From Proteromonas lacertae (taxonomy: Eukaryota): 64,000 bases of DNA. Where the stretch lies: the NCBI GenBank assembly GCA_002245135.1, contig NGBS01000881.1:1-64000 (forward strand). Direction: 5' to 3'. The position numbers and the translations under genes were made by a program. The notes below the pieces were generated by a model. It was not told where the DNA came from. It did no database searches and saw only the letters and a list, made by a program, of their open reading frames with translations. Below are positions 3,001-22,483 of this stretch, in pieces; within the stretch, counting starts at the first letter, position 1, and each line of letters starts with the position of its first letter.

Positions 3001-3283
3001 CAGTTGTTTGTAATTGTTTTAGGTGGTATAATGGTATTATTAGACTTTTAATATCAATAATGATCCAGATTCAGTATTGTTATTAAGGTCAATGGGTATA
3101 AATTTAACTGCAATTATTATTGTGTTATTACAATATGGAATAAAAGTTGTTAGTGTCTATTTTGATGAAGATGCTAAGAATGTAACATCAAGTGGATCAG
3201 CTGGTGTTACAGGAGGTAGTGCTTCAATAGGAGCAAGCGTTAAATCATCTTCGCTATCTTCTCATGGAACATTGATAGTATGA
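1..3283 (+). CDS. Receptor with two periplasmic-binding-protein type 1 (UrtA/AmiC-like) ectodomains and a class C GPCR-like 7TM region; 5'-truncated by the window and broken by several frameshifts/stops
   Basis: Two copies of the PBP1 N-terminal motif (IIQAVDEINNSGGI near 57-100; LVQEINTNGGINGYLL...VVSFFGCSSDSCK in ORF 572-1579). Hydrophobic helices at 2380-3140 include VTRHLNNTFHD, which resembles the 7tm_3 'R-x-l-p-x-x-F-n-E' motif. Ser/Gly-rich tail. Confidence 0.6.
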
Positions 3284-3473
3284 TGTTTGTATCTAATAAG
3301 ACAAAGACTTTTATTACTCAAACTCAAATGAGTAAAATGAAACATATTCAATAACTAAATATTATCACTTTTTATTATTAAATAATCCTATTATTTTTTG
3401 AATGTGTTTTTATTCAGTTAATAATATTTTTGAGTTTAAAAGAAGAGTATGAAATTAATAATTAACAATTATA

Positions 3474-4263
3474 TTAATTAAATAAATGGTTAGGTGTTGG
3501 TAAATTATATTCTTCCATAATTGCATTGTTATTATTTTGAACAGTATTAATATTAGGAGGAATATAATACGTCTGTTGTTGTGGAATATAATAATACACT
3601 TGCTGAGGCTGTTGTTGTTGCTGCATTTGCTCAATATTACTACTTTTATCGTTTTTATTAAGTAGATTCTCATCAATATCAGTATTCTTTTTGTTAATAT
3701 ACTTTGTATATTTATATGATAAATATACTACTACTACTATAACGATCAACAAAAATATTACTGAAGCAGCAATTATTATTCCTGTTAAGTTGGTATTTGA
3801 AGAATCACTGTAGAATGGAGTAGTTCTTTGTTGAATTTTACTAATTCTCTTACCACTTATAATTGCCACAACCAAAATAGTTTGGATTAACATATAACAT
3901 ATAGAAATTATCAATATAAATTCCATTACAATCTAAAAGGTATGAATCCTTGGTATTATTAAAATTTGTTTTAGTAATTTCTACATTTGACATTGTACAT
4001 ACAAGTTTACTGATCTTTTTCTTTAATTCATTACACTCGTCTTTATCTGGAAAATTAATTAAACCATAAACATTATATGCGCCATCCGACCGTTCAAAAT
4101 TTAAATTGTCTAATATCATAAAACTAGAACCATGATCTTTATATTTCTCTTCTATAACTAAATAATATATATTAATTATACCATCATCATTTAATTTGTC
4201 GATTTCTTTATCTGGAGAGACAAATGATAAACACAGCAAGAAAGAAAAGAAAAAGAAATTCAT
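3474..4263 (-). CDS. Single-pass membrane protein with signal peptide and Gln/Pro/Tyr-rich cytoplasmic tail (ORFs 3850-4263 and 3474-3926 joined by a short intron or frameshift)
   Basis: N-terminal MNFFFFSFLLCLSF; TM GIIIAASVIFLLIVIVVVVYL followed by basic residues; tail QQQQQPQQVYYYIP. Confidence 0.7.
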
Positions 4264-4298
4264 TTAAAAAATATATTCGTTTCAAAACAACAGAAACA

Positions 4299-4436
4299 AT
4301 GTCTTTAATAGCTTATTTGATGCTAATATATTATTCATTCGGATATAAATCTAATCAAGTTCATAGTGTTAGTGAAAGAATGATAGAGAGTATAGATTAT
4401 TAAGATTATTAATTCTTAAATAGATTTTAATTCATC
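4299..4436 (+). pseudogene. 5' part (signal-peptide exon, 34-nt intron 4390-4423, start of exon 2) of the host membrane-protein gene interrupted by the Maverick-like element
   Basis: ATG at 4299 gives MSLIAYLMLIYYSFG... After splicing GT4390-AG4423 and removing the element plus one TSD copy, the frame reads ...MIENFNSSHLK directly into MGKRQ at 19270. Confidence 0.8.
4431..4436 (+). repeat. Left target-site duplication TTCATC
   Basis: Same hexamer directly follows the right TIR at 19254-19259. Confidence 0.88.
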
Positions 4437-4618
4437 ATATATATAATAGAGGAAAAGAAAAACCATGGATAGTTTTAAAATAAACAATTTACAGTAAAAT
4501 CAATGTTTTTAGTTACATTTTATAAACAATTTATATACAATTTGTAAACAATTTTACTAATTTGTAGTCAATTTATGCTGATTTGTAGTCAATTTTAATC
4601 GATTAAACTCTCCAATTT
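4437..4618 (+). repeat. Left terminal inverted repeat
   Basis: ATATATATAATAGAGGAAAAGAAAAACCATGGATAG...GTCAATTTTAATCGATTAAACTCTCCAATTT is the reverse complement, with scattered mismatches, of 19075-19253. Contains ~21-bp internal subrepeats (TTTGTAAACAATTTTACTAA). Confidence 0.93.
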
Positions 4619-4698
4619 TTAAATCATTCTATATATATCATCCGTAAGGTTTTCTGTAGAGATGACTACCCTGCTGGGGGGTAGAACAGCTCACTACA

Positions 4699-4734
4699 TC
4701 TAGAGGTTCACTAAAATCTAGAGGTTCACTAAAA
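4699..4734 (+). repeat. 18-bp tandem repeat x2 (TCTAGAGGTTCACTAAAA) just inside the left TIR
   Basis: Direct reading of 4699-4734. Confidence 0.85.
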
Positions 4735-4985
4735 AATTCTAAAAACTCTATAATTGATTCATCTCACTATAAATCTGTAGAGATGATTAATATACATATT
4801 TTTTTTATATTTTTTTTAATATATTTTGTTAATAATAAAAGATACATCAAAAACATCAAGAAATTCTCAAATGAATCATGATTCATTAAATAATATAATA
4901 ATTTTGATACATAATTGATTTTGCATCTAGAGTTCATTCAGCATTTTCCTGACATTTTCATAAAAAAAATTAATTTTAAAAAATA

Positions 4986-5781
4986 ATGAGTCATCAAGTG
5001 ATATATTTATCAGACACTGATATTGATAGTGATAGTGATAGTAATAGTACTCAAAGTGATAAAGACTTTGAAAATCGATTAAAAAACATCAGTAGCATAC
5101 CTAATTATAAAGTTAGGGATATATGTACCAAATGTGCATTAATGGATCAGTCTAAAGGTATTAAAAGACGTAGAATCAGTATAATTTATTACTCTGATAT
5201 ATATATATAATTTTATTAGGTGCACCAGTAACAGGTCGTCCTTTTAATCCATTTAATCCATATCGATTATATATCAAAATCGATAATCCTAATGATGAAC
5301 CTCCAAAAGCAGAAGAAAAATCACCGATGTATATTTTATATTATTTATATATATATATATTTATTTATAGTTATTCACCAACAACACCAACTGATCATGT
5401 TAATGATTTAATCAATTTAACAGTAGGTGATGAACATCGTGAATCAATGTATACTTTATATATATATTTATTATTTATAGATATTCACCAGTACCACCAC
5501 CATCTTCATCTGATACCTTAACCTACGAAGAAATCAAAAAGCTTCGTAATGAAAGCTTAGTAGGTAAAAGGATCAGAGATGGTAGAAGAAGAGCCAAGGC
5601 AGAAAGAGAAGAGCTCAATTTCAAAGTAGCTAGTGACATGTCACTAGCTATGGACCTCCAGCGTTATTACGACACAATGTTCAAAAAACAAGAGTTAGAA
5701 GAAAAGATGATGAAGAAGCACAGATTAAATCCTAAAGTGTTAAAGAGTATCATCAAGAAGGTATTAAAAGATAAAAACTAA
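4986..5781 (+). CDS. Element-encoded hypothetical protein (226 aa), four exons: 4986-5178, 5220-5328, 5371-5448, 5481-5781
   Basis: Three GT-AG AT-rich introns (41, 42 and 32 nt) give a continuous 681-nt frame ending in TAA. Acidic N-terminus, one CxxC, Pro-rich middle and basic helical C-terminus. Confidence 0.8.
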
Positions 5782-5792
5782 TTAGAAAAAGT

Positions 5793-6431
5793 TGTTGTTC
5801 CCCGTATGGCGGAAATCCCCGTATGGCGGAAATCTATATTGCAGAATGATTCAATCAAAACTAATATGATATTCATGATGTTCGGAGTTAGTTATTAACA
5901 AATATATAGTTAGTTTGTCATATGACCTACATCTGTGATATACTTTTTTATGAACTTCATTATTATCAATATTAAACTAATTTTTGTATATTTTCTATTT
6001 TAATGTATCAGTCACTACTACAGTCTAAAATACATTATCTGATATGAATAGAATACAATAATTTTAATGTTAAGGTAGTAAAAAAGGAAATTAAAGAGTA
6101 GGCTTGAGCGAGGCTTGAACTTATTTTTTCTTTTTTCTTTTTTAACCTCCTTAACATTAAAAATAGTGAATTCTATTCATATCAGATAATGTATTTTAGA
6201 CTGTAGTAGTGACTGATACATTATAATAGAAAATATACAAAAATTAGTTTAATATTGATAATAATGAAGTTCATAAAAAAGTATATCACAGATGTAGGTC
6301 ATATGACAAACTAATTATATATTTGTTAATAACTAACTCCGAACATCATGAATATCATATTAGTTTTGATTGAATCATTCTGCAATATAGATTTCCGCCA
6401 TACGGGGATTTCCGCCATACGGGGAACAACA
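5793..6431. mobile_element. Non-autonomous foldback/MITE element with TGTTG...CAACA ends and 5-bp TSD AAAGT, nested in the Maverick-like element
   Basis: Arms 5793-~6075 and ~6149-6431 are near-perfect reverse complements. AAAGT at 5788-5792 and 6432-6436. Each arm carries a subterminal 17-bp tandem CCCCGTATGGCGGAAAT x2. No ORF. Confidence 0.88.
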
Positions 6432-6629
6432 AAAGTAATGTTATTATTAACACTTTTTACTATTGATTGAATTGTTTTTTGTTATTTCTTTTTTTCTATT
6501 TAAAATAAATAATAATAACATAATCCAATAAAATAAACGAAAATATCAAGTGTTTTTCAACACTATAATTTTCGATAAGATTTTCATTATGAATTTTCTT
6601 TTCATTATTTTTTTTATAAAAAAAGAAAA

Positions 6630-7082
6630 ATGAATTCAAGTGAAGAAAAGTATTGTAATCGATGTAAACATATTAAACCTATAAATGACTTTATGAATGA
6701 AAGAGGTGAAATATCAATTCTTTGTAATAGATGTAAAGAATATAGGAGATATTATCAGACAAAATATAGAAGTAAAAAACAGAATGAAATTAGAAGCATA
6801 TCAGTTGATGCTGATGATAAATTTAAATGTCGTTCTTGTGCTCGTTTCTTTAAAAATAAGTATAGATCAAAAGAAATTGCATTATGTAAAGTGTGTTTTA
6901 AATTCCTATTAAAATACTATAAAAATAGAGATAAATATTTAGGTAAACAAGTATATAGAAATGGTAAAATAAGATGTTTTATATGTAGAAAAATGAAATC
7001 TAAGTTAAAAATACATAAGATTAATATATGTAAGAAATGTATAAGACATCATGAACATAAACTAGAAAAGAAACAAATATAA
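6630..7082 (+). CDS. Basic multi-Cys4 zinc-finger protein (family A; paralogue of 17439-18059 and 18464-18886)
   Basis: Six CxxC motifs; CNRCKHIKPINDF...LCNRCKEYRR, FKCRSC...LCKVCFKF and RCFICRK...ICKKC align with the paralogues. Confidence 0.8.
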   Translation: MNSSEEKYCNRCKHIKPINDFMNERGEISILCNRCKEYRRYYQTKYRSKKQNEIRSISVDADDKFKCRSCARFFKNKYRSKEIALCKVCFKFLLKYYKNRDKYLGKQVYRNGKIRCFICRKMKSKLKIHKINICKKCIRHHEHKLEKKQI

Positions 7083-7424
7083 TAATCATAAAAAATGATA
7101 AATATATATATTATATCATTGTTTTATTCGGGTTATTCTTACAAAATATAAGAGTATTAAGTGCATTTATATATATATATATATATATATGATGAATAAA
7201 TCAACAAATACATCAATAATGAATTCATTGAAAGATGTATCAAGTACAATAAATTCACTTAAAAATGAGATTTATATAGTTTTGATTTTTTAGTTAATCA
7301 TATATAAAGATTATATTTGATGATATTTTAAATGGATTATACTCAACTATGTATGATTAACAAAAATACATAATATAAAGTCAAAACTCGATAGAAGAAT
7401 AAAGTAGTATTAAAAATATGATGA

Positions 7425-10400
7425 TTAATCATTTTTATGTGTTATAATAATCATGTTTTTTAATGTTAATATATTTTCTTTTTTGTATCCATATGGCACT
7501 GTATTGTAATTATCTAAGAATAATCTCTTATCATCATAATATGTTAATCCTGTTTTGTTTTGAAATGTTGTATATACATTATGATGAATTGATTTAATTT
7601 GATAAACTTCATATTTTTGTGTATCTTTAATACCATTTACAAAATCATTATATACATCATAAGTAATTTTTCTTGATACTTTTATGTTTATTCCTTTACA
7701 TCTATTATCTGTTGTATTTTTTTGATTTTCATCATTTACGCATTCTTTTTCATATATATAACACTTTGATTTTAGTCCTATAAACTTTGTTATAACATAT
7801 AGGTTTTTATTATTCTTATCCTGCTCTTCAAATTTTAATCGATTCAATGTACCTGGATGAACTGCTCTATGTATATCTAACTTATAATTATCTAAATAGG
7901 GATTTTTTAAATTACTTCCATCAATCCAATTATTAAATATAGGATCTTCCAAATCTCTAAATATATCTTCAGTTTCGACAGAAAATAATAGACTATCAGT
8001 ATCAGTCATACATAATGTCAACTTATTTGATCCATATTTTTTATCTAATACATCATACCAATATTTCTGCATTTTTAGTTTTGATAACTCTAGAATAACC
8101 ATGCCAATTTGTATAGGCTTATTAATTACATATGCTTTTTTATAAAAGTGAGCTATACGTAAGTCTCCTTCAATAATTATAAAGTCTTTAAACCATGGAT
8201 CACTTGCAGCATTAATCATTTGATCTTCATTAGTAATTAAAGAAATGTTACTTCTCTTTTCAACACGTTCCATAAATTTACCGTACAAACTATTCATTAA
8301 TTTCTTTATATAGTCTGCAGTAGTATTTTGATTGTTTTCTTTTGCTTTTACTCTTTTTTCTACCATTGTATTAATATATTTACCCATATATAGACCTTCA
8401 GTAAATCTCATTATTCTATGTACTTTACTAACTTTATAGCCATGTTCAACTGCAAACTTCAAATTTTGATAGTGTATTACATACTTTTCTTTAGGATATA
8501 AATCAGTTATTAATTTTTCAGTACAATGATAAGTCCCTCTTTCTTTATTTATAATTCCTAAAATTTCGGCTCTTTCAGTTTGTAAGTCGGATAACCATTC
8601 TTTAGGTATTTTCTTCCTTTCAGGTAATAATGGGTATTCTTTAAACTTGTCTTGTAGTTCTATAGGTAATTCTATATCTACTTCTAATATATATCCATAA
8701 TCATTATTTGTAAGTCTGTCTTCATCCATTTCTTCATAATAAGGTAAATCAAGTATAGATTCAAATGATATAGATTCTGGTTCAATAAACTCAAAATCTT
8801 TTAAAGGCATTTTGCAAGATGCCATAACTGAGGGATATAAGGAATTATAATCTTGATATAGTAAATACTTATTTCGCAGAGATTTATCATAATTCTTCAT
8901 AAACTTATTATTAGCTTCTTCTTTACGTTTTCCAATGTATGATAAACCACCATATAAGCCTTTTAAAATAAAATCATAATAACTAGGTTCACAGAACAGT
9001 TGCAGTTCCACATCTGTTACATGCAAGAATAAATCAAGTGATAAACTTGGTAAAGATATATACCAGCATGGATCAATATTAAATGTATTAAATATATTTT
9101 CTCTAAAATCATTAAAAACTGATTGCAATATATAAACATCAATTTGTAGATAAAACAAATTGTATTCTCTTATGTTTTTGAAATTGAATATTTCATTTAC
9201 TTCCATAGCAAATCTATATTCTTCTGGTTTTATTGATTCACCACTTAATTTTGATGTAAAGTCATTTATTGAAAGATCACTAAATTTTTCATCAAATGAT
9301 TCAAGGGATGTCATATGCTCATATGGGAAATAATTCTTTTGAAGTAGATACTTTTCAATTATTTCATCATTAATTTGTTTTCCATTATAATATTTAAAAT
9401 TATCATATATACTTTTGAATTTTATTCTTTTATCATTATTTAATTCTGCTGTGATTTTTAGATCATTTGTTAAATTTGCTAATGAACCAGATAAAAATAA
9501 ATAACTGTCAATGAATATTAAATTTTTATATTCAATGCACTTATAATTTTCATCTGTGTTAGGAATTATATTTATTACAGTTTTACTTTCATTTGCTATC
9601 TTTGCTAATTCTCTGATTATAAAATGTTGATCATACTTCATTGCATTATGAGCAATTACTGGTATTTTTAAATTTTTTATATCTATATTTAACTTTTCCT
9701 TAGAACAAATTGAAGCAATATAGTTACCAGTGAAATGATCATGATGTAAAACCTTTATATGATCAATATTATTAAATTCTTTACTACAAAAATCACATTT
9801 GTTTTTCTGATTATGTATATCTAATGTGACAGGGTTCTTATCATATAGTTTAGGATTAGCTAGTCTGTAGTTATACACCATTAATATTTGATTGTAAATG
9901 TTTATAATATCATCTACAAATTCTTTTTTAATATTATGATCATAATTTGATTTACTCTTAATTATTGTGCAACATTCAATATCAGGAATTTTACTATCAA
10001 CATATATACAATAAGAGTATAATTGATGTCTAGACATAATTGATTTTTCTGTTTTAGTCAACTCTCTTTTATCAATTTCCACATCTGTATTAGTTTTATC
10101 ATCAATATTGTCATTCTTATATCTTTTCATATTTAATTCATTTTCATATGGTTGAAAATATGTTTCTGTATCATAGTATAATGTTACAGGAATCATTTGT
10201 AAATGTGTCCAATGCTTAAATTTAATTGTTGATCTATTTGTATCATGTATACTAGGAAATAATCATAATACATTTTCTTTATCTTGACAATCATGATTAA
10301 CGTGAGTGATATACATATTTAAATCATAGATATAGAATAAACAGTATGGACATACATAAATTAAATTTCTTGATTTTGCATTTATCATTCTTCTAAATAA

Positions 10401-11597
10401 ATCATCTAAAGAGCTTATAGCTACATAATGTGAACCATAATCATTCTTTAATAGTAACAGGTTGACTATTCTATATTTTAATTCTTTACTCTGTTTGGAT
10501 AGATGAATGGGAATAAATGTTTCTTTATTATTATCATTTCTATCTATATCTATGTAAAATATATTTACATTCAATTGATTTCTTTTTTCAAATTCATTTA
10601 TTGATTTATAATCAGTTGCATCTACTGGATAATTAAGCATGTTCCATTCATGTTTCTTTTCAAATGATATGTAGTTTTCAATATGATCTTTGTTATATTT
10701 AAATTTACAACTATATAATGCTGTTAAAACTGCCCACTTAAAGCATTGATTGTCTTCATTCATTAGATTAATAAAGCATTTATATCCTTGATATTTAGGA
10801 GGTAATGGAATAAAGCAACTGCCACGAATTACTCTAAACTTTGTAATATATATTTCAACCGTATTAACTCTAAGAAAAGATAAACCACTTTGTGGATGAT
10901 TTGAATCTTGTTCTTCAGATATTTGATTAAAAATACTCTCTAATATTTGAGTAATTTCTACTTTGCTACTAAACTTTGTTATTTGACATATTCGAGATCT
11001 ACTGTATATAGATATTTCATCTTCTTCACTTTTAGATTCGTCAGGTGTATATATTGATCTAACATTGATGAAAAATTTAATCATTTGCATATCATTTGCC
11101 AAACTTTGTAACGTATCAACAATATCGTAGTTTTTAATAAAATCTGAGTAACATTCTTGAGGTGTTATATATGTTTTATTAAATTGATATAATAATTTTC
11201 TTGTTACTCCTTCTGATGATTTTTGTGATTCTAATGAATTTCTTATTCTGTTGCTAATATTTTGACTTGGTTTAGGAATAGAAGTTTTCATTAATCCTCC
11301 ATATATATTATAAGTATTATCATTATTAATGCTTCTTTTTTTGCTTATTTGAGATGTTACTTGATTTAATGAAGTTGATGATATTTTTCTTTTATTAATG
11401 CTTGTTTCTTGATGATTTAAAACAATTGTTTGGGCTAGAGGAGGTGGAGGTTGTTGTTGAATTACTTCACTATCATTACAACTGTTACCACTATGATGAT
11501 GATAATGATGTTTTTTATGATGCTTTCTTTTCTTTTCATTTAAAGTTGTTTTTATTATTTTCAAAAATGCCTTTAATAACTTTTTTTCTTTTCCCAT
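7425..11597 (-). CDS. polB: Protein-primed family B DNA polymerase of Polinton/Maverick type (~1390 codons) with N-terminal terminal-protein/vOTU-like region; one in-frame TGA at 10263-10265
   Basis: Exo motifs YYDTET, IAHNAMKYD, FIDSYLFL and YLQIDV. Polymerase motifs DYNSLYPSVM, KKLMNSLYGKF, TDTDSL, KSKCY, KGI and DDKR. The N-terminal ORF has the Polinton PolB motifs GSCFIPLP, INLMNEDNQCFKWAV and NLLLL...HYVAI. The two ORFs are in the same frame with 22 open codons between them. Confidence 0.95.
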
Positions 11598-11776
11598 ATT
11601 GCATATGAATATCGTTAAATATAAAAGAAATATAAAAAAATAAGATCAAAATAATTTATAATATATGATTGGTTATAGATTTTAATTGGTTAAACATATG
11701 TTTTAAATTCTTTTCTATTTTCATTTTTCTGATAGAATATAACTAACTTTATAATATCATTTCTCTTTCATAAATA

Positions 11777-12529
11777 ATGAGTAATGAAACACCTTACGAA
11801 GCTGCACCTGATGTTGTATTATGTGAATACTTAAAAAGTCCAAAACTATGTAACAAATGGATTATAAAAGGAACAGTAGAGAAGATTGAAGTTCATAAGA
11901 ATGAAAAAAGTCAATATGTTTTAATAACATTTGCTCATGATTTAAATCATCAAGTTGTTATAAATAATGGAAAAGATTGTGAAACTTATTCTGCGGATGA
12001 AGTTAAATATGTTTTAAAACAAATTTATGATAGAAAAGAGAATGATTTTATAGAAAAAATCATTCGCAATTATTTGATTAGTGTTGGTTGTCGTGAGTCT
12101 GAGTATGGTATTAAATACTTTCATAATTTCAACAGTATCATGGTTTGGAGCAACAGTAATTATTTAATACCTCCAAATGTTGATAAAGGTTCTAAAATTG
12201 CAGTTAGTGTAGTTGATTATCAGATTTCTATTAAAAATAATGGTCAGTCTAACTTTGTTAATCATCGTGTTTGTAGTGACATAGTTAGTTATGATGAGAA
12301 TCCTGATTTAGTAACAACAATAAGAAAGTCTAATGAGAAGAAAGCTAAGATAGTTATGAAAGATAAAGATTCTTTTCATACACCTGTTAGAGTTAAAAAG
12401 AATAACATAAAAAAGAATGATATTATAACTACTCATCAACCTTTTAAAAAGACTATAACTGGTGTAACAAATGTATCTAAAGTAATTAACTACATAAAAG
12501 ATGATGATATATCTGATGATGAACCATAA
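11777..12529 (+). CDS. Hypothetical protein, possible OB-fold ssDNA-binding protein; paralogue of 15914-16687
   Basis: 250-aa ORF divergent from polB. LKSPKLCNKWIIKGTVEKI matches LRPSSLNRKWVVKGVIKNI, and further motifs are shared (FIEKII/FVRDIV; IKYFHNFNSIMVW/IKIKYGFDTFILW). Confidence 0.7.
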   Translation: MSNETPYEAAPDVVLCEYLKSPKLCNKWIIKGTVEKIEVHKNEKSQYVLITFAHDLNHQVVINNGKDCETYSADEVKYVLKQIYDRKENDFIEKIIRNYLISVGCRESEYGIKYFHNFNSIMVWSNSNYLIPPNVDKGSKIAVSVVDYQISIKNNGQSNFVNHRVCSDIVSYDENPDLVTTIRKSNEKKAKIVMKDKDSFHTPVRVKKNNIKKNDIITTHQPFKKTITGVTNVSKVINYIKDDDISDDEP

Positions 12530-12667
12530 AAGTCTTAATAATAGCATTAATATTATTCTAATTATTGTGCTCTTAATTACATAAATAAAAATAAATTGTT
12601 TATATTGGGTATATATAGCAAACATATATATATGTATAATTAATATCAATAATTAATTATTTCATTA

Positions 12668-13115
12668 TTAATTAAGTTTTACAACTTTATTATTCGAAGA
12701 ATCATAAGTATTATTCTTAAGTTCTTCATATTTTCTCTTTTTCTTATCTCTGCATTCATTACATGATTTATAGTGAACGCCATTAGGTTTTATATCAAAA
12801 CAATCAACTGATTTATTCTTATTGCATGTTGAGCAGTGAAGTATATTATCTTCTTCTAATGTAGATTCTTCTTGTTCATGGTTCAACACATTTAGCATTC
12901 CATTCAGGATCATCTTCATATTCTTCTATTACTGAATAAATACCATCCAATAAATCTTTAAAAACACCTAATACACATGTTTTAATTAACATTATATTAG
13001 AATCATTATTTTCTTCTAACGTTGCAGGTAGTGCATTCACAACTTCTTTCTCAGTGTCATTTGTGCTAGGCACATCTGAATTACTTAGTGACATTCTGTT
13101 TTTTAAAATACTCAA
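12668..13115 (-). CDS. Small acidic protein with a C-terminal Cys4 zinc finger; two overlapping ORFs probably joined across a 1-nt frameshift near 12878
   Basis: ORF 12876-13115 overlaps ORF 12668-12919, which has CSTCNKNKSVDCF...YKSCNECRDK, the same unit as the other element zinc fingers. Confidence 0.55.
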
Positions 13116-13283
13116 AATCTCAAAGAAAACTATAAATAATAAAATAAAGACAAAATTGTTAACATAAACATATGAATACTATTTGCTAATAATATACCCC
13201 ACCAAAAAGAAGAAGAAGAAATAATAACTCTTTTATATTTTTAATTTATATCAATCTTATTTTTATGCAATAACATTATAATT

Positions 13284-13685
13284 CTAATATTTAATACCAT
13301 TTAATATTATTTTGTTCATAATGATGTTAAGAATTGGATGTCTTTCTAAATGGGTCTTTCCTTCTTTTGATTTTAACCATTCAATATAATTGTTATAATT
13401 AGGGAATACTCTCTTTTCATCTCTTACATATACGCTTGGTTTATAATCATGTATCATTAAAGTATATCTTATTTCATCATATTGTGGAACTAAAGTTTGA
13501 TGACACAAATAACGTTTTTCATTACATTCTTTTGATACTGATTTATTAGAGGTGTCAGGTATTGAGCTTATTTTATGATTAAAATAGAGATAAAATCTAC
13601 AATTATTGCATATATGTTTATCTAAAAAGTCATCATTATTACTGAATGATTTAGATAAAAAATTAAAGTCAATTGAATTTGACAT
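13284..13685 (-). CDS. Element hypothetical protein (133 aa)
   Basis: ATG-initiated ORF co-oriented with neighbours, with a CNNC motif and further Cys/His residues. Confidence 0.6.
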   Translation of the reverse strand: MSNSIDFNFLSKSFSNNDDFLDKHICNNCRFYLYFNHKISSIPDTSNKSVSKECNEKRYLCHQTLVPQYDEIRYTLMIHDYKPSVYVRDEKRVFPNYNNYIEWLKSKEGKTHLERHPILNIIMNKIILNGIKY

Positions 13686-13909
13686 AATGATATATAATAT
13701 AAATTTTGCAAAAGAATATGATAGAAAAATATGAACTGAATAATTAATATAACTTAATTAACATCAGATTCACTTCACACTCTATCCCATTCTCTAAAAG
13801 CTAAAGCTTCTAATCAAATCATCACATATATTATGATATATTGATTATTTAAACCATCTTAATTGTTACATATACATTCTCATCATGTTATTTCTATCAT
13901 TACATATAT

Positions 13910-14149
13910 CTAAATATTTAATTCATTATAATATAATTGATTTAATAATTCTTGTAAATTCATCAAAAAAATATTACTATTGGGTGAATTTGTTTTTATT
14001 CCATATTTACATATATCATTGATCCATTTATACAAATTTAAATATAAATTCGATACTTGTTCCTCTAATATATTACAAGTTATATTTTTAATGCTAATAT
14101 CAATAGGTGATATATTATCATATTCATATATTTTTATCAATTTGTTCAT
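13910..14149 (-). CDS. Small element hypothetical protein (79 aa)
   Basis: Short ATG ORF within a run of minus-strand genes; no motif recognised. Confidence 0.35.
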   Translation of the reverse strand: MNKLIKIYEYDNISPIDISIKNITCNILEEQVSNLYLNLYKWINDICKYGIKTNSPNSNIFLMNLQELLNQLYYNELNI

Positions 14150-14238
14150 GATATTAGAATGAAGTATATTTGTCCCTATTTAAAGAAAAAAGAAATATTA
14201 ATTACTAAGATAATTGAGTAAATTATATGTAACTGTTA

Positions 14239-15012
14239 CTAATTTCTTTTAACCACTTTATACTGATTTAAATATCTTATATTTTTATCTTTTCTTCTAC
14301 ATTTTATACATTTTGAAAATAACTCATTAGTTTTGTTATATATACCCATTTCTTCATAATTTCTTATTTCACCACAATAAGAACACCTAGTCATTCCTTC
14401 TGGAAGTATTTCAGGTAATGTTCTGCCATCAAGTTTGTTTTTATTATACTTCTTATTAGTATTATATTTATTTGCTTTAGAAATTCTGCAAGTTGGACAA
14501 GTTGAATAAAGCTTGTTTGCTTTCATATTAATGCCCATTATACTAATATGATATATCATATGACAAGAAGAACATGATGCATATTCATTAGTATTGTTAT
14601 TTCCATTGATTATATTATTATGTAATTGATTTGCAATACTTTCATTTTTTATTCTTTCTGTCTTTGTCTTGTAATATTTTCTGTTACGGTTTTGACAAGC
14701 TTTACATATTTTACCATATTCACCATTTTGTCTGACAGCTATTTGATGTTTACTTACTATTTTATTACAGCTTGAACATTTAATACAGTTTTCATTATTA
14801 TGAGCATTTATTTTCAAAGATTCATAGATTATTTGATTTGGTTTATTTACAACATTATACTGATAATTATGAAAAGCACAATCTTTGTCAATATGCATAT
14901 CTTTAATAATGTCTCTATCACTATCATTGTCACTACTACTATCACTACTACTATCACTATTCTTAATACAGTCTTTCAACAGTATATATAATTCATTTAT
15001 TATGCTTTTCAT
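14239..15012 (-). CDS. Multi-Cys4 zinc-finger protein (family B, three repeats)
   Basis: Repeats of CxxC-x7-(E/I)MG-x(8-10)-(Y/F)xxCxxCR, e.g. CSYCGEIRNYEEMGIYNKTNELFSKCIKCR. Confidence 0.8.
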   Translation of the reverse strand: MKSIINELYILLKDCIKNSDSSSDSSSDNDSDRDIIKDMHIDKDCAFHNYQYNVVNKPNQIIYESLKINAHNNENCIKCSSCNKIVSKHQIAVRQNGEYGKICKACQNRNRKYYKTKTERIKNESIANQLHNNIINGNNNTNEYASCSSCHMIYHISIMGINMKANKLYSTCPTCRISKANKYNTNKKYNKNKLDGRTLPEILPEGMTRCSYCGEIRNYEEMGIYNKTNELFSKCIKCRRKDKNIRYLNQYKVVKRN

Positions 15013-15111
15013 TATTTAACTGTTTTAGTAATTTATTAATAATATAAGAAATTTGAAAATAAAAATATTTCCCTAAAATATAATAAATAAACAATAGAAT
15101 AATAATATAAC

Positions 15112-15756
15112 TTAAATATTAATTATATTATTAAGTAAATCATATATTTCATTTAAAAAACTGTCACTAAATACAATTAATAATTCATTATCTCTAGTTA
15201 TTCTTGGTATAATTTTTTCTTCTTCAATTACATTCATTTTATTTATAATATTTGTAACATATTTATAACATTTTATGCACATACTGCCTTTTATATTTTT
15301 TCGTTTACAATTATGCATCTCATCACATAACAGACATTTTGATTTAATATAGTCTTCTTTTTTATCTATTTTTCTTCCATTCTTTTTATTCATCTTAATA
15401 CTATTCTTTGATTTATCTCTACACTCTATGCAGCATTGATAAACATTTCCTGTAACTTTATTTATACCCATTTCTTCATAAAGTTTTGATTTTTTGCATA
15501 AGATACATTTTGCATAACCTGGTTCTATTTTATCTATTTTATATTTAAGGTTAACGTTAGATTTATCTCTACATTTAGGGCAAATATTATAATATTTGTT
15601 CCATCTATTCTTACCCATTTCCCAATATTGATATAGTGCTTTACATCTTGAGCATTTGATATATTCATCTGCTTTTGTATAGTAGGGTACTTCAATACCA
15701 TAAAATTCATTATTAATTGAAATTATATCATTATTATTGACATTTTGAGAACTCAT
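15112..15756 (-). CDS. Multi-Cys4 zinc-finger protein (family B; tandem paralogue of 14239-15012)
   Basis: CSRCKALYQYWEMGKNRWNKYYNICPKCRDK and CILCKKSKLYEEMGINKVTGNVYQCCIECRDK. Confidence 0.8.
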   Translation of the reverse strand: MSSQNVNNNDIISINNEFYGIEVPYYTKADEYIKCSRCKALYQYWEMGKNRWNKYYNICPKCRDKSNVNLKYKIDKIEPGYAKCILCKKSKLYEEMGINKVTGNVYQCCIECRDKSKNSIKMNKKNGRKIDKKEDYIKSKCLLCDEMHNCKRKNIKGSMCIKCYKYVTNIINKMNVIEEEKIIPRITRDNELLIVFSDSFLNEIYDLLNNIINI

Positions 15757-15913
15757 TATTAATTCACTTAGAATATAAAAAATAAAACATGCAGATATTT
15801 AGAATAACAATACATCGATTTGCACATTGATTATTGGTTGTTTGCAATTTAGATATTAAAAATATAAATAATAAATCATTTACTTTTTTCTCTATATTAT
15901 ACAATTAATTAAT

Positions 15914-16687
15914 ATGCCTGATATGATAACTCATATATTAAGACCGAGTAGTTTAAATAGAAAATGGGTGGTAAAAGGTGTTATAAAAAACATTATTGAA
16001 GATGAAGATGATGATAAATATACTATTGCTATTAGAGTTGATAAAGACTTTAGACTTATTTATTGGAATTTATCTGAGTATGTTGAACTTAAAAGAAACC
16101 TATATGTCAAAGAGTTAGAAGATACTGAAGATTATCATGGAAATTATTTTGTAAGAGATATTGTTTGTGATTGGTTTAAAGGTCAAGGTAAAAGTGTTCC
16201 AGCAACAATCAAAATAAAATATGGATTTGATACTTTTATATTATGGAAAGATCAATTATCTTTTCATGATATCAAAGGTGAAATGAGTATTTATGATCGA
16301 ATATACTATGAATTAATTGATACATATTTAGAAGTAAAACATAATGAAGTTAAAGATATAGCATATGTATATGTAAAACACAAATTATTTGAAGATAATT
16401 TCTCTGCTTATGATGATGATAAATATTTACTTGAAGATTTAAAATATTATCCAAAAGATATTGAAGAAATAATTGAAGATACATGTATAAAATGTGGAAG
16501 AAACATGAAAGGGGATGAATCCTATTCACCTCAATATGCTTCTGTCAAATATGGCAAAGGTTCATTAAATAAAAGACATAAAAGAAAATTTGATTTAAAA
16601 AAGTTATCTAAAATTAATAAAAAGTTTAAAAAAGATCATGAAAATGATGATATTCTATTTCATTTAGATGATTGGGAACTTGATTAA
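15914..16687 (+). CDS. Hypothetical protein, possible OB-fold; paralogue of 11777-12529
   Basis: Shared N-terminal KW(V/I)(V/I)KG motif; also a CIKC motif, a basic patch and an acidic C-terminus (DDWELD). Confidence 0.7.
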   Translation: MPDMITHILRPSSLNRKWVVKGVIKNIIEDEDDDKYTIAIRVDKDFRLIYWNLSEYVELKRNLYVKELEDTEDYHGNYFVRDIVCDWFKGQGKSVPATIKIKYGFDTFILWKDQLSFHDIKGEMSIYDRIYYELIDTYLEVKHNEVKDIAYVYVKHKLFEDNFSAYDDDKYLLEDLKYYPKDIEEIIEDTCIKCGRNMKGDESYSPQYASVKYGKGSLNKRHKRKFDLKKLSKINKKFKKDHENDDILFHLDDWELD

Positions 16688-16823
16688 AACTATATTGGAT
16701 AATATAATACTAAAAAGTATAAACTGACTTTAAAATGTTATAAATAATATTTATTTTGGGAAATGAAAATAACTATTAGCACAACATAATAATAATAATA
16801 AGACTAATTAATTGAAACATTAA

Positions 16824-17207
16824 TTAATGATATAATCCATACATTACTTTATCCAAGTCCAATCCAAATTTTTCTTTTATATAATTTTTTGCTTTTAAAT
16901 CATGCATTGCAATATATCTATCCATTAGTGCATCAAATTCTTCTGGATCCTCACTATAAATGAATCCTTTATCTAATCCATTTCTTACACGTATATTATG
17001 TCTTCTTCTTTTTTCTCTTATTTTTTCATCTTTAATATGTTTCAACATTTCATTATATCTCTGTAGATCAGCTGTTGATTTAGATTGCACTTGTAGCTCG
17101 TTTGACTGAGAAAATATTTTTCTTTTAAGTGATTCAAATATTGTGTAAAACCATAATAAAGGCTTATAATATGATTCAAGTGAAGATATATAATTTGGAT
17201 TATGCAT
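16824..17207 (-). CDS. Element hypothetical basic helical protein (likely start ATG 17207)
   Basis: ORF track starts at a TTG; first ATG gives MHNPNYISS. Arg-rich KIREKRRRH segment. Confidence 0.6.
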   Translation of the reverse strand: MHNPNYISSLESYYKPLLWFYTIFESLKRKIFSQSNELQVQSKSTADLQRYNEMLKHIKDEKIREKRRRHNIRVRNGLDKGFIYSEDPEEFDALMDRYIAMHDLKAKNYIKEKFGLDLDKVMYGLYH

Positions 17208-17438
17208 TTTTGATACAATAGAATAAATAAAATTGAAGAAAATATAGAATAATACTTTTTCTGTATTATACAAATGCTTCAAAAATGATTTTACCCAATA
17301 AAATAAAACATAGTATGTATTATTTTTTCATTCTCTATATTATTCTCTATATATATGATTTTACTCAACCATAGTCAATCAACATCTTGTATCTACAGTA
17401 TTTAATTTATAAGATGAATTAATAGATCATATAGGAGG

Positions 17439-18047
17439 TTAATTGCATAAATCATCAATGTCATCATTTTCTCCACATTTTGATTCACTCTGATCTATCT
17501 GAAGAGTGAATTTTTGTTGATTACTATCTTTTATATTTGATATATTTTTAGAAGAATTATTCATGTTATTAGATTCTTTTTTGATAGTTTTTTTACTAAG
17601 TGTATATAAATAATGTTTTACACATTTTTTACACTTATTAGTATATTCCATCTTTGATTTGTGTTTTATTTTTCTGCAGATATAACATCTTTGTTCACCA
17701 CCACTTAGTTCTTCATTAAAATGTCTTTTTCTATTATATAAATATTTTTGTTGAAATTTAAAACATATTTTACATAGATCTTTTATAACAAATGAATTAT
17801 ATTTATCATTAAAACATCCATCACAATTAACACATCTAAATTTATCAGATAAATCATTTTTTATTTTTCTATTATTAGAAAAATATATTCTTTTATATTT
17901 TCTGCATTTGCTACACATGTGGTATTCTTTACCTTTATCATTCTTAAAATCATTCATAGGAAAATTATATTTGCATCTTGAACATTTTTTTTCTCTTTTA
18001 ACTAAATTATATGGTAATGTATTTGAATTATTTTCAAGATTTGGCAT
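17439..18047 (-). CDS. Multi-Cys4 zinc-finger protein (family A)
   Basis: CSRCKYNFPMNDF...MCSKCRKYKR, FRCVNC...LCKICFKF and RCYICRK...KCKKC are colinear with 6630-7082. First ATG at 18047. Confidence 0.8.
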   Translation of the reverse strand: MPNLENNSNTLPYNLVKREKKCSRCKYNFPMNDFKNDKGKEYHMCSKCRKYKRIYFSNNRKIKNDLSDKFRCVNCDGCFNDKYNSFVIKDLCKICFKFQQKYLYNRKRHFNEELSGGEQRCYICRKIKHKSKMEYTNKCKKCVKHYLYTLSKKTIKKESNNMNNSSKNISNIKDSNQQKFTLQIDQSESKCGENDDIDDLCN

Positions 18048-18112
18048 TCTTTTCTTCAATATCTAAAAACAGCAAGAAAATTAAAAATGTAAATTTAATA
18101 GAAATTTAATTG

Positions 18113-18354
18113 TAAACTCATACATACACACAATTACAATGCATCAAAGTAATGAAGAATATATGGTATAAACATATATAAATGATATTATGAGAAATTA
18201 ATTTTCTTACTAAATATTGAAATTTTTCTACTTCATCAAAATATTAAATCTAGTTCTTTTGACTTGATATTTTCAATAATAAACTCATACATATACACAA
18301 TTACAATGCATCAAAGTAATGAAGAATATATGGTATAAACATATATAAATGATA
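18113..18354 (+). repeat. 75-bp direct repeat x2 (18113-18187 and 18280-18354)
   Basis: TAAACTCATACATA(C/T)ACA...CATATATAAATGATA, one visible mismatch, in the intergenic region between two family-A genes. Confidence 0.88.
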
Positions 18355-18463
18355 CTAGATATTAAAGTAGAAATGATGAATTATTCATATAAATATATAT
18401 ACACCTAAATTCTAATATAGTAAGATTTACCCATATAAACATTAATTATATATTTAACAAAAA

Positions 18464-18958
18464 TTATAATGCATGTTTATTTAAAGTTTGATGATATTTT
18501 TTCACACAAATATTACACATGTTTTGATATGGCATTATTTCTTTCTTTCTTAAATGTCCACAATGATAACATCTCATCTCTTTATCATTAGTTAACACTT
18601 CATTCTTATACAATTTTTTATATATTTTTATGCTTAATTTAAATCTAAAACATCCTTTACATAAGAATGTCATAACTTTATCATTTAATATCTCTTTACC
18701 TAAGTACTCATTATTATAAAACATTAAACAACATCTGCACTGAAATACCTCATGCATTATATTTAATATCGATTTCTTTTTCTTTAATATAGTCTTATAA
18801 GACCTGCAATATTCTCTGCAATGGTTACACTGATGAAAATATTCATTTGTTTTAGGATTTTTAGTAAAATCAGTTAAACAAAACATTTTCTTACACTTAC
18901 CACACTTAGCAAATCTTGTTCTATCAATTTCATCAGTAGAAAAGTAGATAAATAGAGT
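18464..18958 (-). CDS. Multi-Cys4 zinc-finger protein (family A); open frame extends upstream of ATG 18886 and contains the first CxxC
   Basis: Upstream frame reads ...DEIDRTRFAKCGKCKK-MFCLTDF...HQCNHCREY. Remaining motifs are colinear with the paralogues. Confidence 0.7.
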   Translation of the reverse strand, partial: TLFIYFSTDEIDRTRFAKCGKCKKMFCLTDFTKNPKTNEYFHQCNHCREYCRSYKTILKKKKSILNIMHEVFQCRCCLMFYNNEYLGKEILNDKVMTFLCKGCFRFKLSIKIYKKLYKNEVLTNDKEMRCYHCGHLRKKEIMPYQNMCNICVKKYHQTLNKHAL

Positions 18959-19074
18959 GTGTTCCTATCTGTTCCTACCCCCGCCGTAGCTATCTGTAGA
19001 GAAAAAACTTATAGAGAGAGAGAGAGTGATACATTCACTTTAGCAAGTTAATATTTTAACTGTTTTAAAATATT

Positions 19075-19253
19075 AAATTGGATAGTTTAATCGATTAAAA
19101 TTGACTACAAATCAGCAAAATTGTTTACAAAATTAGTAAAATTGTTTACAAAATTAGTAAAATTGTTTATAAAATGTGAACAAAAACATTGATTTTACTA
19201 TAAATTGTTTATTTTTAAACTATCCATGGTTTTTCTTATCCTCTATTATATAT
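19075..19253 (-). repeat. Right terminal inverted repeat
   Basis: Reverse complement of 4437-4618; ends ...CTCTATTATATAT; includes tandem AAAATTGTTTACAAAATTAGT subrepeats. Confidence 0.93.
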
Positions 19254-19259
19254 TTCATC
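19254..19259 (+). repeat. Right target-site duplication TTCATC
   Basis: Identical to 4431-4436. Confidence 0.88.
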
Positions 19260-20275
19260 ACATTTAAAAATGGGAAAAAGACAGATACTGAAAGAAAATC
19301 TATATTCTAATTTTCGATATAAGTTAGATCTTTCAGATTTATATTTCTCGTTTGATAAATCATCTTTATTAAAAGCATATGGTACTATATATCCAGTTCC
19401 TCAGAGTAATTGTGAATCAGATACAAATATTAAAACAATTTCTTGCATTGTTTCAAAAATCAGTATTTCTGCTGATGGATTTGGTGGAACAAATCCATTA
19501 ACTTCATTTGACTGTAGCGGTACTATTATAAATGCTGAAGCAAAATTTGCATACCCAAATTTTTTTTCTTGTGCTATTTTTGATAGTAATGATAATATGG
19601 TTTCTTTTGGTTCAATAAAAACAAATTATTATGATAAAGACACAGATAATGATCATCATAATGGTGACAGTGATGATCATGGTGGTAGTGGAGGTAAATC
19701 GTTTGCTTCTGGTGGATATTATATAGTATTCATAGTAATAGCAATAATTATGTGCAGTATTGCTTGTTGTTGTTATAGACGATTTCATAAAAGGAATAAA
19801 GTGAATAGTGAAGTTCAAATGGCTTCTCAATCGATAGTAGGACAGAATCAACAACAACAACCAATAGTAAATGCAATTCCTGTTCAACCTTATCAACCAA
19901 ATGATGATAAGAATAATAATGGCAATGTTCCAGTTCAAGGAATTCCGTATAATCCACAACAACAGCCTTATTATCCTAATCCTAATGGTGAACAACCACA
20001 ACCACAGCTATTTTATCCAAATAGTCAACAACTACAACAACCATATTATTCCCAATCCCAATGATCTACAACAGCCACAAGTGATTTATTATTATATTCC
20101 ATCAGCAGCTGTTGGAACAAGTGAACTACCAATAGGGGTTGATCCTCTGCCAATTGGAGTTCAAACTCCACCAATTTCATCTTCAAATTTAGTTCAGAAT
20201 AATATTGATCCAAATAATTCATCGCATAATAATTATTATCTTCCTTCTTCACAAACAACTCCACCAATACAATAA
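19260..20275 (+). pseudogene. 3' part of the interrupted host single-pass membrane protein (Cys-rich TM end, Gln/Pro/Tyr-rich tail); 1-nt frameshift near 20050
   Basis: TM YYIVFIVIAIIMCSIACCCYRR. The YYPNPN repeat continues in the next frame (NPNDLQQPQVIYYYIP), matching the tail of the divergent gene 3474-4263. Confidence 0.75.
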
Positions 20276-20430
20276 CCTATTATTTAATATAAATTTGTTA
20301 TTATTTTAATGTATTTCTTTTCTTTTGAAGCTAATATTTTGTATTTTTTGTAAGCTACATAGGTGTATTAAATAAATTACAAAAATGGTAATAATGAATG
20401 TAAATTACCATATTAATGTAATTTTATGAA

Positions 20431-21561
20431 ATGGAAGATGAAGAAGGGATTGCTCAAGCAGCAAAGCTAATAAAAGAGTGTGATATACTTTTATTTGTTA
20501 CTGGAGCAGGTTGGTCCGCTGATTCAAAGCTGCCTGTGTATAAAGACGTTGCAAGTATAAATATGAAGTATGAGTTTATAGAAAATGAAATTTATGCGAA
20601 TCAGAATATAACTTATTATGATTTATGTAAAGAAGAAATGGTATTTCATATTTTTAATTATAGATTAGTTTATAGATAAACCTGACATATATTGGGGATT
20701 TTGGGGTAGTTGCTATGATGATTATCACAATGCTATACTACATCATGGATATGATATTTTGAAAGAGTGGAATGAAAATGTATTTCAAAAGAAAGATAAA
20801 TCAAAAAAGAATTAGGAAAATATATAACCAATATTTGGAAAGAAAAAATGAATAAGAATAGAAGACATTATGATAAATTATACTATCATTATAAAGAAGA
20901 TTATGAATCTTTTTCATCTCCTTTATTTTTATTAACATCTAATGTTGATCATCATTTTTATAATTATGGATTTGATTCGAAGTTAATTTATGAAATACAC
21001 GGTAACTGTGATTATATTCAATGTGGTAATGAAAAATGTACAAATATGAAATCGTGGTTAATACAACCACCAAATATTCGGTTTAATGTTCCAAAAGATA
21101 CATTATTATATAATGTAAATTACAGTGAAGATAATAAAATATTATTTTGTCAAAAATGTGGTAATTTAGGTAGACCAAATGTAATGATGTTCGATGATAC
21201 CACTTATTGTCATAATACAATTGCGTATAAAACATATAAGCTGTGGGAGTTAGGTGTGGAAGAATTGATGAAAAACAATGATAATATTTCTGTTGTTATA
21301 TTAGAAATTGGTTGTGGAAATAGAGTTCCAACATTAAGAATGGAGAGTGAAGATATAATGGAATCTATTTTATCAAAAGAAGATGGATTTCAACCACAAT
21401 ACACTGATGATGGAAGATCAAGAATAAAAACAATAAGAGTGAATTTAGAAGAATGTTATTGTGATGATAATTGTGTAGATGGCAATTATTTGTGTATAAA
21501 AGACACAGCATTGCATTTTATGGAAAGAGTTGATTCATTACTCACAGATTGGAAGAAGTAG
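20431..21561 (+). CDS. Sirtuin (SIR2 family NAD-dependent deacylase); introns 20555-20581 and 20641-20668, probable homopolymer frameshift near 20805
   Basis: TGAGWSADSKLP, YWGFWG, TSNVDHHF, EIHGNCDYIQC, CQKCGNLGRPNVMMFDD and VILEIGCG. Confidence 0.88.
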
Positions 21562-21716
21562 ACAAAATTAATCAACTAAATACTAATAATTAGATATTAT
21601 TACATTGTTTTAGAATTATTAGAGTGTTATTTGTTGTAACTCTTTTTATATTTTATAAATACACAATACATTTGTATTTTGTATTACCCTCTTTTTTGAA
21701 AATATGGTATATTGCA

Positions 21717-22450: not shown

Positions 22451-22483
<33 letters not shown>

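What the first reader, a model, noticed from the sequence alone, without database searches (positions are those of the whole stretch)
4299..20275. The element sits inside a host gene and the empty site can be rebuilt in frame
Seen: removing 4437-19259 and splicing the 34-nt intron 4390-4423 joins a signal-peptide exon (MSLIAYLMLIYYSFG...) in frame to ORF 19270 (...MIENFNSSHLK-MGKRQ...). This independently fixes the boundaries and shows a real insertion. The target is a Gln/Pro/Tyr-tailed membrane protein whose probable paralogue lies head-to-head 35 bp away. Inference: the 3' part keeps an ATG 10 bp past the TSD and could be expressed without a signal peptide from a TIR promoter.
Basis: partly seen in the sequence, partly recalled or inferred. 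Interest (0 to 1): 0.7.

Follow-up and report, generated by a model that had tools for sequence, protein, structure and literature searches.

The report
Polinton-like insertion splits host membrane gene
A 14.8-kb virus-like DNA element with inverted ends and a 6-base target duplication sits inside a protist gene predicted to encode a cell-surface membrane protein and likely knocks that copy out, which is an ordinary kind of insertion.

Summary
The anatomy is real. A 14.8-kb element (4437-19253) with ~180-nt inverted ends and a protein-primed DNA polymerase gene is flanked by a 6-nt direct repeat. Removing it and a 34-nt GTAT..TAG intron puts ATG 4299 in frame with 19260-20064; such a set-up arose in 0 of 2000 shuffles (post hoc criteria). 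An orthologue (~48% identical) runs uninterrupted across the junction, has no Met at 19270, and probably shares 5.3-kb contigs with the orthologue of the head-to-head paralogue, leaving no room for the element. The paralogue is real and has its own hidden phase-1 intron. So the insertion lies inside a gene, and the allele is likely null. The proposed TIR-driven, signal-less product has no support: Met 19270 is an internal, unconserved Met. Caveats: the orthologue has an extra N-terminal domain and no matching intron, exon-1 homology is weak (p about 0.01), both genes carry a 1-nt frame break in a stretch with many such breaks, and no reads or empty-site DNA were available. No integrase, ATPase or capsid was detected and the polymerase has an in-frame stop, so the element is Polinton-like and defective. 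Ordinary; interest low to modest.

The parts
4299..4389 (+). Exon 1 of the interrupted host gene, 30 codons + 1 nt; hydrophobic N-terminus, predicted signal peptide; ends in RMIE
   Evidence: best 10-residue hydropathy 2.39; RMIE shared with orthologue P0018 near the expected diagonal, 224 of 20000 shuffles; whole-exon local score not significant, p 0.30
4390..4423 (+). Predicted 34-nt phase-1 intron, GTAT..TAG, 85% A+T
   Evidence: matches 13 hand-picked host introns (32-46 nt, median 35, A+T 0.82-0.92); no RNA evidence; no counterpart visible in the orthologue's ORF
4424..4436 (+). First 13 nt of exon 2, ending in the left target-site copy
4431..4436 (.). Left target-site duplication TTCATC
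4437..19253 (.). Polinton-like pPolB element, 14,817 nt, no integrase, ATPase or capsid detected
4437..4618 (+). Left terminal inverted repeat, begins with (AT)n
19075..19253 (-). Right terminal inverted repeat
7425..11597 (-). [quoted passage not shown]
   Evidence: Pfam DNA_pol_B_2 E 1.8e-27; homologues of 1243-1371 aa align across both ORFs in one frame
5793..6431 (.). Nested 639-nt palindromic MITE-like insertion, TGT..ACA ends, 5-nt direct repeat AAAGT
19254..19259 (.). Right target-site duplication TTCATC
19260..20275 (+). Rest of exon 2: predicted Ig/FnIII-like beta-sandwich, transmembrane helix with Cys-rich end, Gln/Pro/Tyr tail; 1-nt frame break near 20051; internal Met at 19270
   Evidence: fold from the orthologue's model
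3474..4263 (-). Head-to-head paralogue; hidden stop-free 30-nt phase-1 intron 4181-4152; 1-nt frame break near 3865
   Evidence: orthologue P0021 43-53% identical

Best explanation
A 14.8-kb Polinton-like DNA element with inverted ends and a 6-nt target duplication sits 13 nt into the predicted second exon of a host gene for a predicted single-pass surface protein, and it likely makes this allele null. Shown: TIRs, TSD, pPolB gene, in-frame rebuild, paralogue, uninterrupted orthologue. Inferred: a retroviral-type integrase made the 6-nt staggered cut (from known Polinton biology), supplied in trans or lost since, because none is detected here. Inferred: a transcript from ATG 4299 would splice the short intron, run into the left TIR and stop after 37 residues, leaving the ectodomain, transmembrane helix and tail stranded 14.8 kb downstream. 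Inferred: the insertion is fairly young (intact TSD, one stop in 1391 polymerase codons, about 0.4% divergence if that stop is real), so the open 3' exon is leftover rather than a sign of use.
For: TSD, TIR and frame. The intron fits the local consensus: 19 of 25 filtered candidates start GTAT, and the 13 hand-picked ones are 32-46 nt. Null test: 0 of 2000 shuffles and 10 of 18238 window positions. Orthologue cluster P0018/P0025-27 is 48-50% identical over the 3' exon, reads through the junction and has no Met at 19270. Target-orthologue and paralogue-orthologue clusters share longest-contig lengths 5341 and 5302, which likely means both genes on one 5.3-kb contig without the element. Residues before the conserved Gly: rebuilt form 76, Met-19270 form 38, one-domain relatives 51-69. 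The paralogue has a phase-1 intron after codon 27. The truncated left product stops at residue 37. rve integrases typically leave 6-bp TSDs (PMC12220804, passages).
Against: No reads, RNA or empty-site DNA were seen. The orthologue is about 65 residues longer before the domain (conserved Gly at 141 vs 76), with an extra predicted beta-sandwich that has no significant remnant upstream of 4299 (23 of 850 tiles score as well; shuffle p 0.11). Its ORF shows no 34-nt intron at the RMIE position. Exon-1 homology is weak: p 0.30 overall, p about 0.01 for RMIE and 0.007-0.015 against P0023/P0044 among five comparisons. Target and paralogue each have a 1-nt frame break, and 11 of 15 frame breaks examined in host genes have no intron candidate, so the genes may have been decaying anyway or the consensus is locally poor. 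The TIRs differ by about 8%, more than a young insertion predicts. The null-test criteria were set after seeing the case.
Confidence: 0.7

Rival explanations
1. The element did land in this gene, but the gene, and perhaps this whole stretch, was already a decaying pseudogene, so the insertion changed nothing.
For: 1-nt frame breaks in target (near 20051) and paralogue (near 3865; its orthologue is intact there). About nine breaks or stops in the 3.2-kb gene to the left and several to the right, whereas ORFs of 1092-2764 codons run unbroken at 27-57 kb. The target lacks the orthologue's first domain.
Against: Exon 1, the intron and 260 codons of exon 2 are stop-free and in frame. Several breaks sit in base runs, one lies at 35.1 kb far from the element and one in the neighbouring Sir2-family gene, which fits assembly indels. 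One-domain architecture is normal in the family (P0021, P0043, P0044).
Confidence: 0.17
2. One reading: an outward-facing promoter in the right TIR drives a signal-less 264-residue or longer product from Met 19270, so the insertion rewires rather than kills the gene.
For: ATG 19270 is in frame, 10 nt past the TSD, in an A-rich context like other starts in the window; the whole domain, transmembrane helix and tail lie downstream.
Against: The Met is not conserved. A Met before the domain is expected 28% of the time. An out-of-frame ATG at 19226 lies upstream in the TIR. The element ORFs nearest both ends point inward (4987+, 18886-). The open frame is expected without selection (P 0.86).
Confidence: 0.06
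3. The 4299 exon is unrelated; the gene really starts at 19270 and the element sits in its 5' flank.
For: Exon-1 similarity to paralogue and orthologue is not significant by local alignment; the orthologue's ORF has no matching intron.
Against: Null test 0 of 2000. The Met-19270 form has no hydrophobic N-terminus (0.71 vs 2.39), while the paralogue, P0021 and P0043 have one. Orthologues extend far upstream of that position. RMIE match.
Confidence: 0.04
4. The element is spliced out as a giant intron from donor 4390 to a cryptic acceptor just inside the 3' exon, rescuing a nearly full protein.
For: In-phase acceptors exist at 19294, 19327, 19336 and further on (7 of 11 YAG/AAG sites examined are in phase).
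Against: It needs a 14.9-kb intron where the introns seen are 32-46 nt, and the native acceptor 4423 is intact and adjacent.
Confidence: 0.02
5. Assembly chimera: the element was joined into the contig by error.
For: Many small frame breaks nearby suggest imperfect consensus.
Against: An exact TSD flush with both TIR ends and an in-frame rebuild would not come from a misjoin.
Confidence: 0.01

Closest known systems
Polinton/Maverick elements and Polinton-like viruses (PMC12220804 and PMC8097293, passages read)
   Same: 14-40 kb size class, TIRs over 100 nt, 6-nt TSD, protein-primed PolB, simple-repeat ends; most known vertebrate copies (96%) are defective, as this one seems to be.
   Different: No rve integrase, tyrosine recombinase, packaging ATPase, protease or capsid detected; ends are (AT)n, not (AG)3 or (AGT)2; carries Cys-x2-Cys repeat paralogues, a paralogous ORF pair of unknown fold, an intron-bearing gene and a nested MITE.
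Blastocystis MELD virus with Alpha-adintovirus-like PolB (PMC8502044, section 3.4 read)
   Same: Adintovirus-like PolB element in a gut stramenopile; the weaker named homologues of this PolB are Rhizophagus irregularis proteins.
   Different: That virus has an integrase and inferred virion genes.
Ginger2/TDD-type DNA transposons (PMC2836005, passages read), for the nested 639-nt element
   Same: TGTNR ends and a 5-nt TSD, as in Dictyostelium TDD-4/TDD-5.
   Different: No transposase; about 300-nt arms forming a near-complete palindrome; only one copy seen.
Single-pass proteins with Cys-rich juxtamembrane and Pro/Tyr tail (WBP-1, Commissureless; Shisa-like recalled from memory)
   Same: Same layout; weak Pfam hints WBP-1 E 0.022 and Comm E 0.037 over the transmembrane part.
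   Different: Both hits are far below the family cut-offs; the ectodomain is a predicted Ig/FnIII-like sandwich (best Z 7.9, rmsd 2.7, 93 aligned), a common arrangement. A lead only.

Membership tests
Polinton/Maverick | [quoted passage not shown] | tested here: met
   PF03175 E 1.8e-27; 17 homologues with E<=1e-3; one in-frame stop in this copy
Polinton/Maverick | Terminal inverted repeats of 100 nt or more and 14-40 kb length | tested here: met
   about 180 nt, 169 of 183 columns; 14,817 nt
Polinton/Maverick | 6-nt target-site duplication | tested here: met
   TTCATC on both sides; a 7-nt register is also possible
Polinton/Maverick | Retroviral-type (rve) integrase gene | tested here: not met
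   No Pfam hit in 49 of the 55 stop-free frames of 48 aa or more (the other 6 lie inside the polymerase gene and were not sent); none in PHROGs for 32 frames; second-Asp motif absent in six frames. An intron-split or very divergent gene could be missed.
Polinton/Maverick | Packaging ATPase (Walker A) | tested here: not met
   No [GA]x4GK[ST] in six frames of 4437-19253; no Pfam or PHROGs hit
Polinton-like virus | Double jelly-roll major capsid protein | tested here: inconclusive
   No unassigned ORF over 270 aa; no HMM hit; the model of the 11777/15914 pair had pLDDT 41 and was not searched
Type I single-pass membrane protein (host gene) | Single transmembrane helix behind an extracellular domain | tested here: met
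   Hydrophobic stretch in 19270-20064; orthologue model has beta-sandwich 120-220 and helix 241-279. Prediction only.
Type I single-pass membrane protein (host gene) | Cleavable N-terminal signal peptide | tested here: inconclusive
   Hydropathy only; no signal-peptide predictor on hand; the called N-termini of P0018 and P0019 are not hydrophobic and may be incomplete
Ginger2/TDD non-autonomous element (nested insert) | TGTNR ends with 4-5 nt TSD | tested here: met
   TGTTG ends, AAAGT direct repeat
Ginger2/TDD non-autonomous element (nested insert) | Autonomous partner with Gypsy-like integrase sharing the ends | not testable with these tools
   No genome held

The most novel reading that the evidence does not exclude
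The element belongs to an undescribed family of capsid-less, integrase-less pPolB replicons of a gut protist, plasmid-like and loaded with zinc-finger paralogues, that are integrated in trans by another element's integrase; this copy is a recent, polymorphic natural knock-out of a lineage-specific surface protein.
Probability: 0.25. Interest if true: 0.5.

Novelty: new member of a known kind. Interest (0 to 1): 0.3.

Why it matters
A transposon-like element inside a gene is common, so the finding itself is ordinary. Its value is practical. It pins the exact ends and TSD of an otherwise unannotated pPolB element, shows that such elements integrate into coding sequence of this compact protist genome, and gives a PCR-testable natural knock-out of an uncharacterised surface-protein family. 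It would matter more if sister copies also lack integrase and capsid genes (a distinct non-autonomous class), or if TIR-started transcripts were found.

Tried and rejected
No whole genome is held. The sequencing-run search on 19260-26000 listed no run and no RNA holder (no evidence either way), so no reads could be laid. Word-indexed protein search with target residues 1-185: 0 of 93 candidates. Exact look-up of 10 window proteins: 0 of 10. Related-locus scans: viral contigs with pPolB 0 of 5 stretches; metagenome contigs with target alignment 0 of 597 and paralogue alignment 0 of 593; TIR pattern in viral contigs 0. ESM Atlas: no usable hit for the target, best 0.76 for P0018, a lead at most. 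Rfam: 0 matches in 3300-20500. Earlier findings: three look-ups, nothing. The sigma-70 promoter scan is not meaningful for a eukaryote: 2 found, 2.4 expected. A Blastocystis 3'-end motif (recalled) is not enriched, 4 vs 7 expected, so it gives no support for that host. The idea that 4214-4389 is a frame-shifted remnant of the orthologue's first domain was tested and was not significant. P0024 (2038 aa, repeat-rich, E 7e-4) was dropped as a likely chance hit from the 7. In one search the target's tail was read in the wrong frame, so its tail comparison is void; corrected. The fold of ORF pair 11777/15914 was too poor to search. Seven paper searches listed no paper whose title or abstract start describes this locus; subscription papers are not covered and no supplements were read, so repeat-annotation supplements of protist genome papers may already list the element.
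Full report
Setting. The window is an A+T-rich (about 26% G+C), gene-dense eukaryotic sequence with short introns, Ig-repeat (He_PIG) and teneurin-EGF genes. No tool named the organism: no genome is held, 0 of 10 window proteins are in the collection, and the closest DNAJC11 homologues (87% and 84%) are unnamed Logan proteins. An AT-rich Blastocystis-like gut protist is my inference; PMC12129017 (passages) describes such lineages with 21-23% G+C, longer introns and normal stops, and intergenic gaps of tens of bases in human isolates. The 3'-end motif of human subtypes is not enriched here. The host is therefore unresolved.

The element. Inverted repeats at 4439-4618 and 19075-19253 match at 169 of 183 columns, and the end pattern occurs exactly twice in the window. 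TTCATC flanks both ends (4431-4436, 19254-19259); a 7-nt register gives the same junction. The chance of a 6-nt repeat at both ends is about 9e-4. Inside lies a protein-primed PolB gene at 11597-7425 (PF03175 E 1.8e-27). Homologues of about 1300 aa align across two ORFs in one frame, so the stop at 10263-10265 splits a single gene. No integrase, recombinase, ATPase, protease or capsid was detected: 49 of 55 stop-free frames in Pfam, 32 in PHROGs, and motif scans of six frames. The other ORFs are Cys-x2-Cys repeat paralogues, a weakly paralogous pair at 11777 and 15914 (E 1e-4; fold unusable) and an intron-bearing gene at about 4987-5780. A 639-nt palindrome with TGT..ACA ends and a 5-nt repeat is nested at 5793-6431. 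It works like a Polinton (PMC12220804, PMC8097293, passages) but fails the integrase and ATPase tests, so I file it as Polinton-like and defective.

The rebuilt site. Removing 4437-19259 and 4390-4423 gives one open frame from ATG 4299 to 20064. Of 30 GT..AG pairs in 4299-4436, 3 open the frame, all with acceptor 4423, and only donor 4390 begins GTAT. A heuristic intron scan gave 107 candidates, 25 after an A+T and YAG filter, 19 of them starting GTAT. The 13 minus-strand host introns I picked from those 25 (dropping the 9 plus-strand rows and 3 alternative ends) are 32-46 nt, all GTAT..TAG, A+T 0.82-0.92; the candidate is 34 nt, GTAT..TAG, 0.85. An ATG, hydrophobic N-terminus and such an intron in frame with a fixed junction appeared in 0 of 2000 dinucleotide shuffles and 10 of 18238 window positions; without the hydrophobic filter 14 of 2000 and 202 of 18238. 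The criteria were chosen after seeing the case, so these numbers are optimistic.

Paralogue. The minus-strand gene starting at 4263, 35 nt from ATG 4299, shares the ectodomain (E 2e-6; score 87 vs 35+-6). The N-termini are not significantly alike (p 0.13-0.3). It hides a stop-free 30-nt GTAT..TAG intron at 4181-4152, in phase 1 after codon 27, against phase 1 after codon 30 in the target. The distance from intron to domain differs, so the positions are similar, not provably homologous.

Orthologues. A profile of both genes found 7 proteins among 1.84 billion; I dropped P0024 as a likely chance hit. P0018 and its cluster (385-416 aa) are 48-50% identical to the 3' exon, read straight across the junction and have no Met where 19270 falls. 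P0021 is the paralogue's orthologue (43-53%). Members of the two clusters share longest-contig lengths 5341 and 5302. I infer that both genes sit on the same 5.3-kb contigs in a relative, with no room for 14.8 kb; the DNA could not be fetched. The orthologue shares RMIE with the end of exon 1, six residues off the expected diagonal (224 of 20000 shuffles), but the whole-exon score is not significant (p 0.30). Exon 1 resembles the N-termini of P0023 and P0044 at p 0.007 and 0.015, among five comparisons. Residues before the conserved Gly are 76 in the rebuilt form, 38 from Met 19270, and 51-69 in one-domain relatives, which favours the rebuilt form.

Against a tidy picture. P0018 and P0019 have an extra N-terminal domain (Gly at 141 and 166; two beta-sandwiches in the model, mean pLDDT 62). 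It scores best on the paralogue's domain (rank 1 of 850 tiles) and leaves no significant trace upstream of 4299. So the window's gene either lost a repeat or never had it. The orthologue's ORF shows no intron at RMIE. Target and paralogue each have a 1-nt frame break, and 11 of 15 frame breaks examined, 14 of them within 0-24 kb, have no intron candidate while 4 have weak ones (frames read by eye). ORFs of 1092-2764 codons run unbroken at 27-57 kb. Local assembly error and local decay cannot be told apart without reads. The TIRs differ by about 8%, more than the single polymerase stop suggests; part of that lies in subterminal repeats.

Protein. The shared domain folds as an Ig/FnIII-like sandwich (Foldseek best E 3e-4; best Z 7.9, rmsd 2.7, 93 aligned), a common arrangement that shows no function. 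It is followed by one helix with a Cys-rich end and a Gln/Pro/Tyr tail.

Mechanism. Shown: insertion with TSD 13 nt into exon 2. Inferred from Polinton biology: an rve-type integrase made it, here absent, so supplied in trans or deleted later. Inferred: the left part would splice and stop after 37 residues in the TIR, so the allele is likely null. The TIR-promoter idea is unsupported. Met 19270 is unconserved, a Met before the domain is expected 28% of the time and within 4 codons 6%, an out-of-frame ATG lies at 19226, and one polymerase stop corresponds to about 0.4% divergence, at which the 3' exon stays open with probability 0.86. Splicing the element out is possible in frame (7 of 11 nearby acceptors in phase) but needs an intron about 400 times the local size. 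No RNA holder was listed, so expression is untested.

Verdict. Observation confirmed; interpretation partly supported. A new instance of a known kind of event. Papers: passages of PMC12129017, PMC2836005, PMC12220804, PMC8097293, PMC5608401; passages and section 3.4 of PMC8502044; others only as search listings; no supplements read. Interest 0.3.

Noticed in passing
window 5793-6431: 639-nt near-perfect palindrome (2 mismatches in the first ~260 nt of each arm) with TGT..ACA ends and AAAGT 5-nt direct repeats: a Ginger2/TDD-like MITE nested in the large element, probably younger than it.
   Followed up: partly
window 10263-10265 (-): A single in-frame TGA splits the 1391-codon pPolB gene; homologues are one ORF. 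Nonsense mutation or assembly error.
   Followed up: partly
window 4987-5780 (+): Element gene with apparently three short GTAT..TAG introns of host type (5179-5219, about 5329-5370, 5449-5480); no family hit.
   Followed up: no
window 6630-7082, 12668-12925, 14239-15012, 15112-15756, 17439-18047, 18464-18886: Two sets of paralogous Cys-x2-Cys repeat ORFs inside the element (27-42% identity between copies).
   Followed up: partly
window 11777-12529 and 15914-16687 (+): Weakly paralogous ORF pair (E 1e-4), beta-rich; an ssDNA-binding role is a guess from memory; the model was too poor to test.
   Followed up: partly
window 150-3283, 20790-23500, 35090-35150: Cluster of single-base frame breaks and one in-frame stop in host genes at 0-24 kb (a periplasmic-binding-domain membrane receptor-like gene has about nine), rare at 25-64 kb. 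Either local decay or a poorly polished stretch.
   Followed up: partly
window 4181-4152 (-): Stop-free 30-nt intron hidden inside the paralogue's ORF; ORF callers read through it.
   Followed up: yes
window about 29300-32200 (+): Three tandem copies of a 969-nt unit, 100% identical over the 300 nt compared, inside a 2764-codon surface-protein ORF; recent duplication or collapsed assembly.
   Followed up: no
window 18105-18190 and 18272-18357: 86-nt direct repeat (94%) in a non-coding gap of the element.
   Followed up: no
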